A model generated the notes under the pieces. That model had not been told where the DNA came from and did not search any database. It saw only the letters and a list, made by a program, of their open reading frames with translations. From the human T2T-CHM13v2.0 reference genome, Homo sapiens, in NCBI RefSeq assembly GCF_009914755.1, contig NC_060926.1: a stretch of 64,000 nucleotides of DNA. The stretch is one strand, 5' to 3'. Each line of letters starts with the position of its first letter. Position 1 is the stretch's first letter. The translations under genes were made by a program, and so were the position numbers. Of the stretch, positions 22,031-61,091 are shown one piece after another.

Positions 22031-25017
22031 TTTTTTTTTTAATACTTTAAGTTCTGGGAAATGTGCAGAACATGTAGGTTTTTTACATAGGTATACACGA
22101 ACCATGGTGGTTTGCTGCACCCATCAACCCGTCATCTATATTAGGTATTTCTCCTAATGCTATCCCACCCCGACCCCACCCCAACAGGCCCCAGTGTGTG
22201 ATATTCCCCTCCTTGTGTCCATGTCCATGTGTTCTCATTTTTCAACTCCCACTTTTGAGTGAGAACACATGGTGTTTGGTTATCTGCTCCTGTGTTAGTT
22301 TGCTGAGAATGATGGTTTCCAGCTTCATCCATGTCCTTGGCAAAGGACATGAACTCACCCTTTCTTAGGCTGCATAGTATTCCGTGGTGTATATGTGCCA
22401 CATTTTCTTTATCCAGTCTATCATTGATGGGCATTTGGGTTGGTTCCAAGTCTTTGCTATTGTGAACAGTGCTGCAATAAACATACGTGTGCATGTGTCT
22501 TTATAGTAGAATGATTTATAATCCTTTGGGTATATATCCAGTAAGAGGATTGCTGGGTCAAATGGAATTATTGGCACTAGACCCTTGAGGAGTCGCCACA
22601 CTGTCTTCCACAATGGTTGAACTAATTTACAGTCCCACCAACAGTGTAAAAGCATTCCTATTTCTCCACATCCTCTCCAGCATCTGCTGTTTTCAGACTT
22701 TAATGGTCACCATTCTAGCTGGTGTGAGATGGTATTTCATTGTGGTTTTGATTTGCATTTCTCTAACGACCAGTGAAGATGAGCTTTTTTCATACGTTGG
22801 TTGGCTGCATAAAAGTCTTCTTTTGAGAAGTGCCTGTTCGTATCCTTCACCCACTTTTTGATGGTGTTGTTTTCTTCTTGTAAATTTGTTTCAGCACCTT
22901 GCAGATTCTGGATATTAGCCCTTTGTCAGATGGATAGATTGCAAAACTTTTCTCTCATTCTGTAGGTTGCCTGTTCACTCTGATGATAGTTTCTTTTGCT
23001 GTGTAGAAGCTCTGTAGCTTCATCAGATTCCATTTGTCAATTTTGGCTTTTGTTGTCCTTGTTTTTGGTGTTTTAGTCATGAAGTTTCTGCCCATGCCTA
23101 TCGCCTGAGTGGTATTGCCTAGGCTTTCTTCTAGGGTTTTTATGGTTTAGGTCTTATGTTTAAGTCTTTCATCCATCTTGAGTTAATTTTGTATAAGGTG
23201 TAAGGAGGGTATCCAGTTTCAATTTTCTGCATATGGCTAACCAGTTTTTCCAACACCATTTATTAAATAGGGAACTCTTTCCCCATTGCTTGTTTTTGTC
23301 AGGTTTGTCAAAGATTAGATTGGTGTAGATGTGTGGCATTATTTCTGAGGCCTCTGTTCTGTTCCATTGGTCTATGTATTTGTTTTGGTACTAGTACCAT
23401 GCTGTTCTGGTTACTGTAGGCTTGTAGTATAGTTTGAAGTCGGGTAGTGTGATGCCTCCAGCTTCATTCTTTATGCTCATGATTGACTTGGCTATATGGG
23501 CTCTTTTTTGGTTCCATATAAAATGTAAAGTAGTTTTTTATAATTCTGAAGGAAGCACTAAATATGGAAAGGAAAAACTGGTACCAGCCACCGCAAAAAC
23601 ATACCAAATTGTAAAATCCATCAAGAGTATGAAGAAACTGCATCAACTAATGGTCAAAATAACCAGCTAGCATCATAATGGCAGGATCACATTCACACAT
23701 AGCAATATTAACCTTAAATGTAAAAGGGCTAAATGCCCAAATTACAAGACACAGACTGGCAAATTGGATACAAGACCTATCAGTGTGCTGTATTCAGGAG
23801 ACACATCTCATGTGCAAAGACACACATAGGCTCAAAATAAAGGGATGGAGGATTATTGACCAAGCAAATGGAAAGCAATAAAAAGCAGGGGTTGCAATCA
23901 TAGTCTCTGATAAAACAGACTTTAAACCAACAAAGATAAAAAAAGACAAAAAGGGCATTACATAATTATATATTTTACATAATGGTAAAAGGACCAATGC
24001 AACAAGAAGAGCTAACTATCCTAAATATATATGCACCCAATACAGGAGCACCCAGATTCATAAAGCAAGTTCTTAGAGACCTAGTAAAAGACTTACACTC
24101 CCACACAATAATAGTGGGAGACATTAACACCCCACGGTCAATATTAGACAGATCAATGAGACAGAAAATTAACAATGATATTCAGGACTTGAACTCAGCT
24201 CTGGACCAAGTGCACCTAATAGACGTCTACAGAACTCTCCACCCCAAATCAACACAATGTACATTCTTTTCAGCACCACATTGCACTTATTCTAAAATTG
24301 ACCACACAATTGGAAGTAAAACAATCCTCAGCAAAGGCAAAAGAACAGAAATAATAACAGTCTCTCAGACCACAGTGCAATCAAATTAGGACTCAGGATT
24401 AAGAAACTCATTCAAAACCACACAACTACATGGAAACTGAACAACCTGCTCCTGAATGACTACTGGGTAAATAATGATATGAAGGCAGAAATAAAGATGT
24501 TCTTTGAAACCAATGAAAGCAAAGACACAACATACCAGAATCTTTGGGACAGAGGTAAAGCAATGTTTAGGGGGAAATTTATAGCACTAAATGCCCGCAG
24601 GAGAAAGGGGGAAAGATCTTAAATCGACATCCTAACATCGCAGTTAGAAGAACTAGAGAGGCAAGAGCAAACAAATTCAAAAGGTAGCATAAGAGAAGAA
24701 ATAACTAAGATCAGACCAGAGCTAAAGGAGACAGAGACATGAAAAACGCTTCAAAAATCAATGAACCCAGGAGCTAATTTTTTGAAAAGATTAACAAAAT
24801 AAATAGACCATTAGCCAGATTAATAAGGAAGGAAAGAGAGAAGAATCAAATAGACACAATAAAATATAATAAAGGGGCTATCACCACTGATCCTACAGAA
24901 ATACAAACTACCATCAGAGAATAATATAAACACCTCTATGCAAATAAACTGGAAAATCTAGAAGAAATGGATAAATTCCTGGACACATACACCCTCCCAA
25001 GTCTAAACCAGGAAGAA
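22031..25017 (-). mobile_element. Inverted L1PA7-like element A: minus-strand 3' part (22031-23548) joined to plus-strand ORF1 end/ORF2 5' part (23546-25017)
   Basis: Poly-T at 22031; junction TAATTCTG|AAGGAAGCACTAAATATGG; ORF2 start MAGSHSHIAILTLNV at 23678; ends at CCAGGAAGAA. No TSD found. Confidence 0.93.
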
Positions 25018-25319
25018 AATACATATTCAATCACAATCAAATGGATGTTTCAAAAGTGGAGCAATTTGAGTGTCAGATATTAACATAGATTATTCTTGTT
25101 TTTCACCAGGTTTACTTCAAGTTTAACATAAGTTTATAGAGTTGCGCTAAAGGGAAGCATTTTTGAAAAAGTAAAATAAAATAGAATAAAAGCATCACCA
25201 CTGTATAAAGTTCCTTGGTTTTGCTTTATTCCTAATCATATTATTGAGAGTTGTCTTTCATCTCTGAATTTATATTGTTGTTACTCTGTAGTTCAATTAT
25301 TTGCTCCATAATACCTATA

Positions 25320-60900: not shown

Positions 60901-61091
60901 GAAGATAAAAAATAACTAAGATCAGAGCAGAACTGAAGGAGATGGAAATACGAAAAACGGTTCGAAAAATCAATGAATCCAGGAGCTGGTTTTTTGAAAA
61001 GATTTACAAAATAGACCGCTAGCCAGACTAATAAAGAATAAAAGCGAGAAGAATCAAATAGACACAATTAAAAATGATAAAGGGATATCAC
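57955..61091 (-). mobile_element. Inverted L1PA7-like element B: minus 3' part (57955-59774) joined to plus ORF1 end/ORF2 5' part (59772-61091)
   Basis: Junction TGATTCTG|AAGGAAGCACTAAATATGG; TSD CACACTCTTCTT (57943-57954) / CACCCTCTTCTT (61089-61100). Confidence 0.94.
58629..58926 (-). mobile_element. AluS nested in L1 element B
   Basis: Full dimer; flanked by CTGAC(A)TTT / CTGACTTTT. Confidence 0.93.

What the first reader, a model, noticed from the sequence alone, without database searches (positions are those of the whole stretch)
22031..61091. Two sister L1PA7-like elements 36 kb apart share an identical inversion junction: candidate retrotransposed pre-inverted L1 lineage
Seen: A (22031-25017) and B (57955-61091) both join antisense late ORF2 (...TAGTTTTT..T[A/G]ATTCTG) to the sense end of ORF1 (AAGGAAGCACTAAATATGG...) at the same 3-nt CTG microhomology (23546-23548; 59772-59774). 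They share substitutions absent from the L1PA3-like copy at 8899-12935 and from my recalled consensus: GCAATCATAGTCTC (vs ATCCTAGTC), GAAGCTCTGTAG (vs CTTTAG) and TCAGATTCCATTTG (vs TAGATCCC). Against recalled consensus only, they also share GGATCACATTCAC and AGTATGAAG. Yet their flanks are unrelated, their distal ends differ by roughly 130 nt, and B has its own poly-A and TSD inside an MLT1B. Established: twin-priming inversions normally give each insertion a unique junction. Inference: the inversion was already fixed in a source locus that was transcribed and mobilised in trans, since ORF2 is destroyed. That would be a non-autonomous rearranged L1 family with variable 5' truncation, or B is a retrocopy of A. 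Such RNA would carry sequence antisense to the ORF1 end and EN region of active L1s. I cannot say whether this has been described.
Basis: partly seen in the sequence, partly recalled or inferred. Interest (0 to 1): 0.85.

Follow-up and report, generated by a model that had tools for sequence, protein, structure and literature searches.

The report
One inverted L1, copied once nearby
Two old, broken L1 retrotransposon copies 36 kb apart carry the same internal inversion joint because they descend from one rearranged element, but they are an isolated pair, not a new mobile family.

Summary
A (22031-25017) and B (57955-61091) have the same layout: poly-T, about 1.5 kb of antisense L1 3' end, one joint (..ATTCTG|AAGGAAGCAC..), then sense ORF1-end/ORF2.

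In this genome only A and B carry that joint. The joints of 3 of 3 other inverted L1s are single-copy.

A and B also share rare substitutions along their whole length. There are 5 rare transversions in the right arm; only 2 of 990 comparison pairs reach that number. A three-base combination in the left arm occurs nowhere else. So the joint arose once.

Flanks are unrelated. B sits in an MLT1-type LTR with a real 8-12 nt target-site duplication. A has none.

A and B are about 11% apart, roughly twice each copy's distance from its subfamily. The split is therefore about as old as the element.

Best reading (0.55): an already inverted template RNA was reverse-transcribed into place by L1 machinery, with variable 5' truncation. 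Main rival (0.2): a local DNA-templated copy. No family exists, and the 36-kb spacing stays unexplained. Interest is modest.

The parts
22031..22040 (-). A: poly-A tail (T10 on the + strand)
   Evidence: preceded by GTTTCTTC
22041..23548 (-). A: non-inverted L1 3' arm (end of ORF2 plus 3' UTR), read antisense on the + strand; ends at point X in late ORF2
   Evidence: aligns to the L1 copy at 12909-11388 at 85%; 86-89% to genomic L1 3' ends
23544..23548 (.). A: inversion joint, microhomology TTCTG (or CTG)
23549..25017 (+). A: inverted arm, sense on the + strand, from the ORF1 end (point W) through about 1.47 kb of ORF2 to point Y
   Evidence: in intact L1 copies Y lies 1181 nt short of X (e.g. 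L054)
57943..57954 (.). B: left target-site duplication CACACTCTTCTT (core CTCTTCTT) inside an MLT1-type LTR
57955..57964 (-). B: poly-A tail (A + T9 on the + strand)
57965..58630 (-). B: non-inverted L1 3' arm, first part
58629..58932 (-). Alu inserted into B after the A/B split (antisense, poly-T first, TSD about CTGAC(A)TTTT); absent from A
58933..59774 (-). B: non-inverted L1 3' arm, second part, ending at the same point X
59770..59774 (.). B: inversion joint, same TTCTG microhomology
59775..61091 (+). B: inverted arm from the same point W, 132 nt shorter than A's at the distal end
61089..61100 (.). B: right target-site duplication CACCCTCTTCTT; its first 3-4 nt can equally be read as L1
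21866..22016 (-). Older, more diverged L1 fragment abutting A's tail. It does not continue on the other side of A.
   Evidence: 74% to A 162-320

Best explanation
**What it is.** One inversion event joined the L1 3' part (from point X in late ORF2 to the poly-A) to an inverted piece starting at the end of ORF1 (point W). It used 3-5 nt of microhomology. This is the kind of join twin priming makes, in an L1 of roughly L1PA7/8 age.

**How the copies arose.** The rearranged element cannot make ORF2 protein. It was transcribed from the strand that ends in the L1 poly-A signal. The RNA was then reverse-transcribed into new sites by L1 proteins supplied by other elements.
- Each insertion was 5'-truncated at a different point inside the inverted arm.
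- B is such an insertion.
- A is either another one or the source itself.

**Timing and number.** Both copies date from about the time of the inversion, and only these two survive in this genome.

**Shown:** single origin of the joint; unrelated flanks; B's tail and TSD; the early split.

**Inferred:** the RNA route; supply of L1 proteins in trans; truncation as the cause of the different ends.
For: **Single origin**
- The joint 25-mer occurs only at A and B.
- Of 10 hits to a 29-mer allowing 3 mismatches, only A and B have the two arms abutting at X and W.
- Three joint-centred BLAST searches return only A and B as spanning hits.
- 3 of 3 control inversion joints are single-copy.
- A and B share 5 rare right-arm variants, all transversions. 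Only 2 of 990 pairs reach 5 or more, A-B being one of them.
- They share 8 rare left-arm variants over 1477 columns.
- One triple combination is unique genome-wide.
- These shared sites are spread over both arms.

**Separate insertions**
- The flanks share only dispersed repeats.
- B's target duplication covers the same MLT1 columns on both sides when aligned to 3 other genomic MLT1 copies. In the shuffle test, 47 of 2000 shuffles score as well.
- B starts exactly at the L1 poly-A, next to a T-rich site.

**Fit to truncation of a pre-inverted RNA**
- Both copies lack 1181 nt (A) or about 1313 nt (B) between Y and X.
- In a long-read survey, 132 of 287 inverted L1s had these two points within 20 bp of each other (PMC12016303, passages read).

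**Early split**
- A differs from the column majority at 97 of 1453 sites and B at 83 of 1310.
- A and B differ from each other at about 11% of sites (K2P 0.12).
- Identity is even along the element, 0.85-0.93 per 200 columns.
Against: - **Proximity.** There are only two copies, 36 kb apart and in the same orientation. With random L1 integration the chance for a given pair is about 2 x 10^-5. No local bias of L1-mediated insertion is established.
- **No source found.** No copy has a longer inverted arm reaching X, and none has a promoter.
- **A's status.** A has no TSD, so it is unclear whether A is a clean insertion.
- **B's nick site.** It is T-rich but non-canonical (TTTT/C or TCTT/T).
- **Tree.** The maximum-likelihood tree does not pair A with B.
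- **Lineage variants.** 3 of the 5 shared right-arm variants are also in L028. Part of the shared signal is therefore a minor L1 lineage rather than a private stem.
- **Route.** Nothing in the sequence proves RNA rather than DNA.
- **Search limits.** Only 40 of 2352-6044 candidates were scored in each BLAST-type search.
Confidence: 0.55

Rival explanations
1. **Local DNA-templated copy.** A broken or nicked end in the MLT1 invaded the nearby A locus at its T-rich tail. It copied about 2.85 kb of A as DNA (a microhomology-mediated template switch or break-induced replication). It then returned 8-12 nt upstream of where it left, producing a duplication that mimics a TSD.
For: - It explains what retrotransposition does not: only two copies, 36 kb apart, same orientation.
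- B is wholly contained in A's extent.
- Microhomology is possible at both ends: TCTTC plus a T-run on the left, CAC(C) on the right.
- A long-read survey of human structural variants reports non-tandem duplications: 17,029 duplications, of which 15,295 are tandem. It also reports replication-based complex events (PMC12350158, passages read).
Against: - The left boundary falls exactly at an L1 poly-A tail. The right boundary carries an 8-12 nt direct duplication, a normal TSD length, at a T-rich site. These are the hallmarks of target-primed reverse transcription.
- TCTTC plus a T-run also precedes 2 of 10 other L1 tails, so that match carries no weight.
- The split is as old as the element. 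A DNA copy could have arisen at any time since, so this early timing has roughly a 0.05 chance (my estimate).
- No other collinear copied segment exists in the flanks.
Confidence: 0.2
2. **Two independent twin-priming events** that happened to resolve at the same microhomology (a recurrent hotspot).
For: - 3-5 nt of microhomology lies at the joint.
- Another inverted L1 (L036) has its point W within about 3 nt of this one.
- Long-read work reports peaks in breakpoint positions (PMC12016303, passage read).
Against: - Both X and W coincide exactly in A and B, and in no other copy in 3.1 Gb.
- L036 has a different X, and its joint is unique.
- A and B share rare transversions and a genome-unique triple variant.
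- It also requires two such events 36 kb apart.
Confidence: 0.03
3. **Segmental duplication, gene conversion between two unrelated L1s, or an assembly artefact.**
For: Same chromosome, same orientation, 36 kb apart.
Against: - No flank homology beyond dispersed repeats.
- B interrupts one MLT1 cleanly with a TSD.
- Identity is an even 85-93% with no high-identity tract, and shared variants are spread over both arms. Conversion would also need a recipient that already had the same topology.
- About 11% divergence, plus an Alu private to B, rules out an assembly duplicate.
Confidence: 0.02

Closest known systems
5'-inverted L1 insertions made by twin priming (Ostertag & Kazazian 2001; the paper is not held here, so cited from recall and from the accounts in PMC2912911 and PMC5668948, passages read)
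   Same: - Poly-A-bearing 3' arm plus an inverted upstream arm.
- Microhomology at the joint.
- In B, a tail and a TSD.
   Different: - Each twin-priming event makes its own joint (3 of 3 controls are unique). Here one joint is present at two loci.
- The two arms are not adjacent in L1 coordinates: 1.2-1.3 kb is missing, whereas 132 of 287 cases were within 20 bp in PMC12016303.
SpIREs: spliced L1 RNAs that were retrotransposed (PMC5860796, abstract read)
   Same: A structurally altered L1 RNA is copied back into the genome, so the same internal joint appears at different loci. Such elements are largely evolutionary dead ends.
   Different: - SpIRE joints are splice sites that recur independently from normal L1 RNA. 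This joint has no GT/AG donor on the antisense-ORF1 side (read directly) and needs a DNA template that was already inverted.
- SpIREs are numerous; here there are two copies.
Trans-mobilised RNAs: processed pseudogenes, orphan transductions, HAL1-type non-autonomous L1 derivatives (general knowledge, recalled)
   Same: A transcript with no working ORF2, ending in a poly-A, is inserted by L1 proteins supplied in trans, with 5' truncation and a TSD.
   Different: No dispersed family, no identified promoter or source locus, and the two copies are neighbours.
Local templated insertions / interspersed duplications by replication-based template switching (mentioned in PMC12350158, passages read)
   Same: A short-range copy in the same orientation, with microhomology possible at both ends.
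   Different: B's boundaries look like target-primed reverse transcription: it starts at a poly-A tail and has a TSD of normal length.

Membership tests
Twin-priming type 5'-inverted L1 insertion | Poly-A-bearing 3' arm joined to an inverted more-5' arm of the same L1 | tested here: met
   (both A and B)
Twin-priming type 5'-inverted L1 insertion | Microhomology at the inversion joint | tested here: met
   3-5 nt (CTG/TTCTG), by comparison with normal copies
Twin-priming type 5'-inverted L1 insertion | The end of the non-inverted arm and the start of the inverted arm are close in L1 coordinates (small deletion or duplication) | tested here: not met
   The gap is 1181 nt in A and about 1313 nt in B. 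This is common but not universal: 132 of 287 were within 20 bp (PMC12016303).
Twin-priming type 5'-inverted L1 insertion | The joint is private to one insertion | tested here: not met
   The same joint is at two loci. 3 of 3 control joints are unique.
Twin-priming type 5'-inverted L1 insertion | Flanking target-site duplication | tested here: inconclusive
   B: yes, 8-12 nt. A: none found.
Non-autonomous retrotransposon family derived from L1 | Several dispersed copies with distinct TSDs sharing the diagnostic structure | tested here: not met
   Two copies only, on one chromosome, 36 kb apart.
Non-autonomous retrotransposon family derived from L1 | A source copy with a promoter or a longer 5' part | tested here: not met
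   No further copy of the joint was found. Each BLAST-type search scored only 40 of thousands of candidates.
L1-mediated retrocopy (target-primed reverse transcription) | Poly-A tail at the 3' end, directly next to a TSD | tested here: met
   B only.
L1-mediated retrocopy (target-primed reverse transcription) | Canonical endonuclease nick site (TTTT/A and close variants) | tested here: inconclusive
   B's site is T-rich, but the base after the nick is C or T. Published surveys find the canonical site in only 63-70% of insertions (PMC12016303, table read).
L1-mediated retrocopy (target-primed reverse transcription) | An RNA intermediate | not testable with these tools
   The template has no intron or other RNA-only mark.
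Segmental duplication | Collinear homology extending into the flanks | tested here: not met

The most novel reading that the evidence does not exclude
**Short-range re-insertion.** A freshly inserted, inverted and non-coding L1 (A, or a lost neighbour) was transcribed. Its chromatin-associated RNA was picked up in the nucleus by L1 ORF2 protein from another element. It was then reverse-transcribed into a nick only 36 kb away, in the same orientation.

That would be a local-hopping mode of L1-mediated retrotransposition for RNAs that never engage in cis-preference at the ribosome. It would explain both the retrotransposition hallmarks of B and the otherwise very improbable spacing.
Probability: 0.12. 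Interest if true: 0.6.

Novelty: new variant of a known kind. Interest (0 to 1): 0.35.

Why it matters
- **Inversion joints as lineage markers.** An L1 inversion joint, normally a one-off scar, can be inherited by a second insertion. Identical joints can therefore be used like transductions to trace parent and offspring among dead L1s.
- **A caution for annotation.** Counts of 'twin-priming events' taken from annotation may include secondary copies.
- **The open point.** The pair lies 36 kb apart. If a genome-wide census showed that such sibling copies cluster, there would have to be either a local bias of L1-mediated insertion or a DNA-level copying route that mimics its hallmarks.
- **As a single case** it is a curiosity about 30 million years old (my estimate from K2P 0.12 and a recalled neutral rate), with no sign of function.

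Tried and rejected
- **Family search.** I ran an exact and near-exact joint pattern and a 29-mer with the T-run. I ran three joint-centred BLAST-type searches and a probe for the private triple variant. No third copy turned up. The long-arm searches did not even list B among the 40 scored hits, so such searches are not exhaustive.
- **Splicing as the source of the joint.** Rejected. The downstream side follows a good acceptor-like CAG, but the antisense-ORF1 side offers no GT or GC donor in any register of the microhomology (read directly).
- **Sister grouping in a tree.** The right-arm maximum-likelihood tree does not pair A and B. The AU test does not reject the pairing (p 0.38). The counts of shared rare variants carry the signal instead.
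- **TCTTC plus T-run in front of both tails as evidence that B came from locus A.** Rejected after finding it at 2 of 10 other L1 tails.
- **A TSD for A.** None found beyond chance.
- **Flank homology.** None. **Gene-conversion tract.** None.
- **Literature.** Full-text term searches found no paper describing retrotransposition of an already inverted L1. These are term searches of an open-access library only. Ostertag & Kazazian 2001 is not held, and Szak 2002 did not come up in the search. I looked at no supplements.
- **Left-arm comparators.** Only 7 full-length copies plus partial ones could be used, so 'rare' is less secure there than in the right arm (48 comparators).
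Full report
**What is there**

A (22031-25017) and B (57955-61091) have the same architecture on the + strand.
- A short poly-T comes first.
- About 1.5 kb of L1 3' end follows, read antisense.
- Then comes one abrupt joint, and after it sense L1 running from the end of ORF1 into ORF2.

In A the joint microhomology is at 23544-23548 and the sense arm runs 23549-25017. In B they are at 59770-59774 and 59775 to about 61091. B's antisense arm is interrupted by an Alu (about 58629-58932) with its own short duplication. A lacks this Alu.

B's distal end aligns to position 2855 of A's 2987 nt, so it is 132 nt shorter.

The window also holds a 5'-truncated, uninverted L1 at 8898-12935. 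Measured on that copy and on genomic copies such as L054, the far end of the sense arm (Y) lies 1181 nt (A) or about 1313 nt (B) short of the point where the antisense arm stops (X).

**The joint**

Ordinary L1PA copies read CT[C/T]CTGAAGGAAGCAC at the ORF1 end.
- 1261 hits match the 25-mer at <=2 mismatches.
- 53 of them have one mismatch. Nearly all of those read CTTCTG.. or ATCCTG..

On the antisense ORF2 side the sequence reads ..AATTCTG. The overlap is therefore CTG, or TTCTG if the source carried the CTTCTG variant. The most similar ordinary copy (L028) does carry it. A splice origin is excluded because no register offers a GT or GC donor.

**Is it unique to A and B?**

- The exact 25-mer across the joint occurs twice in the 3.1-Gb genome, at A and B.
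- A 29-mer that includes the T-run, allowing 3 mismatches, gave 10 hits. The reversed-pattern control gave 2.
- BLAST of A's two arms against the other 8 hits showed that none has the two arms abutting at the same X and W.
- Two of those hits (L035, L036) are different inverted L1s with other X points.
- Joint-centred queries of 300, 120 and 300 nt returned only A and B as spanning hits. The other 38 scored hits in each search cover one half only.

Caveat: each of these searches scored only 40 of 2352-6044 first-look candidates.

As controls, the joints of three other inverted L1s were run the same way: L037 (X and Y 11 nt apart), L036 (about 3.1 kb apart) and L035. Each was matched across the joint only by itself.

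**Common descent beyond the joint**

*Right arm.*
- I aligned A, B, the window's L1 at 8898 and 47 genomic copies.
- These 47 covered the whole arm at >=84% identity. Shorter or more diverged hits were left out.
- A and B share 5 variants present in at most 10% of the others. All 5 are transversions.
- I excluded the 5 rows of the clearly younger clade. Among the remaining 990 pairs, only 2 share 5 or more rare transversions. They are A-B and L069-L077.
- L028 shares 3 rare transversions with each of A and B, so part of the signal marks a minor L1 lineage.

*Left arm.*
- Only 7 full-length comparators plus partial ones were available, giving 9-28 letters at the flagged columns (at least 7 were required per column).
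- A and B share 8 rare variants over 1477 columns.
- Three of them lie within 16 nt. That combination occurs genome-wide only in A and B: 2 exact hits, 12 with one mismatch, 491 at <=2 mismatches.
- The probe lies about 1 kb from the 3' end. It would therefore also have found offspring truncated before the joint, and it found none.

*Tree.*
- The maximum-likelihood tree of the right arm is star-like and does not pair A with B. Their end branches are 0.073 and 0.067.
- Forcing them together costs 8.0 log-likelihood units and is not rejected (AU p 0.38).

The shared stem is therefore real but very short, a few substitutions in 2.8 kb. Each private branch is about 6.5%: A differs from the column majority at 97 of 1453 sites and B at 83 of 1310.

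A and B are 88.6% and 89.0% identical in the two arms (K2P 0.12). Identity is even along the length, 0.85-0.93 per 200 columns. The split is thus about as old as the element itself. There is no recent conversion tract.

**Separate loci**

The 10-kb flanks of A, the 10-kb left flank of B and its 2.9-kb right flank (as far as the window reaches) share only Alu and L1 fragments, in no collinear order.

B interrupts an MLT1-type LTR. Aligned with three other genomic copies of that LTR, B's left and right flanks meet on the same columns. C[A/C]CTCTTCTT is present on both sides. The 12-nt repeat with one mismatch is reached by 47 of 2000 shuffles, even before requiring that it sit exactly at both boundaries.

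B therefore has the classic marks of an L1-mediated insertion:
- it starts at the L1 poly-A;
- it has an 8-12 nt TSD;
- its target is T-rich, although the base after the nick is not the usual A.

A has no TSD above chance (688 of 2000 shuffles). A abuts an older L1 fragment (21866-22016) that does not resume on its far side. A may have come in with a target deletion, or it may have been altered later.

**How it most likely arose**

The joint formed once, by the microhomology join that twin priming makes. The twin-priming model is taken from PMC2912911 and PMC5668948 (passages read). The original paper is not held.

Two loci then received the already inverted sequence. The simplest route is RNA.
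- A transcript ending at the L1 poly-A signal would read: antisense ORF2/ORF1-end, then sense late ORF2 and 3' UTR.
- It cannot encode ORF2 protein, so L1 proteins must have come from other elements.
- Ordinary 5' truncation at different points gives the two different Y ends.
- It also explains why both copies show a gap of more than 1 kb between Y and X. In a long-read survey, 132 of 287 inverted L1s had these points within 20 bp (PMC12016303, passages read).

Whether A is the source or a sibling cannot be told. A cannot derive from B, because A is longer.

**What this does not explain**

With random integration, a given pair lands within 36 kb with probability about 2 x 10^-5. Here the pair is also in the same orientation and is the whole 'family'.

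A local DNA-templated copy (template switch from the MLT1 into A's tail and back) would explain the spacing. It must then mimic a poly-A start and a TSD by accident, and it must have happened just after A arose.

I first thought the shared TCTTC in front of both tails pointed to locus A as the template. The same motif precedes 2 of 10 other L1 tails in my loci, so I dropped that argument.

[quoted passage not shown] Its authors link this to replication timing (PMC10733166, abstract and passages read). That is weak precedent for a proximity effect.

My weights:
- RNA-mediated copy of a pre-inverted template: 0.55. This includes a possible short-range bias, at 0.12.
- Local DNA copy: 0.2.
- Recurrent hotspot: 0.03.
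- Duplication, conversion or artefact: 0.02.
- The rest is unassigned.

**Comparison and novelty**

The element works like a twin-priming product that was copied again. It is analogous to SpIREs, where an altered L1 RNA is retrotransposed and ends as a dead end (PMC5860796, abstract read).

It fails two usual features of a primary twin-priming insertion (a private joint and adjacent arms). It also fails the defining feature of a mobile family (several dispersed copies).

I found no description of a re-copied inverted L1 in five full-text term searches. That library lacks most subscription papers, and I read no supplements.

Not tested with any tool:
- The age of about 30 million years rests on a recalled neutral rate.

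**Verdict**

The 'family' reading is not supported, and the copying route is unresolved. This is a modest curiosity with one puzzling feature, the 36-kb spacing.

Noticed in passing
L036 = L023 (G000:C5:102.155 Mb), joint near locus position 1517: Another inverted L1 has its sense arm starting within about 3 nt of A/B's point W (..TACATTCTGAAGGAAGC..). It is joined to only 112 nt of antisense 3' end, leaving about 3.1 kb between the arms. Its joint is unique in the genome.
   Followed up: partly
L035 (G000:C2:79.810 Mb), joint near locus position 1506-1513: Inverted L1 with a 1.1-kb antisense 3' arm joined about 7 nt upstream of A/B's point W. My pattern was anchored at the ORF1 end and turned up three such inversions. 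That is a selection effect of the pattern and does not show a hotspot.
   Followed up: partly
L069 and L077 (G000:C23:149.82 Mb and 149.52 Mb): These two L1 copies about 0.3 Mb apart on contig 23 share 6 rare transversions, the only pair above A-B in the comparison. They group in a supported subclade with L008, L074, L075 and L030. This may be a local duplication or a minor lineage.
   Followed up: no
window 58629-58932: An Alu inserted into B's antisense arm, with a short duplication (about CTGAC(A)TTTT). It is absent from A, so it came after the split.
   Followed up: partly
window 21837-22016: An older L1 internal fragment (74% to A) ends a few nt before A's tail and does not continue beyond A. 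It also lacks its own 3' end. This is compatible with a target deletion when A inserted.
   Followed up: no
window 20525-21086, and locus L007 near position 800: The motif TCTTC directly in front of the L1 tail T-run recurs at unrelated L1 insertions (2 of 10 looked at). It probably reflects target preference or patterned tails.
   Followed up: partly
L028 (G000:C6:124.176 Mb): An ordinary (uninverted here) L1 copy with the CTTCTG variant shares 3 rare right-arm transversions with each of A and B. It probably belongs to the minor lineage that gave rise to the inverted source.
   Followed up: partly
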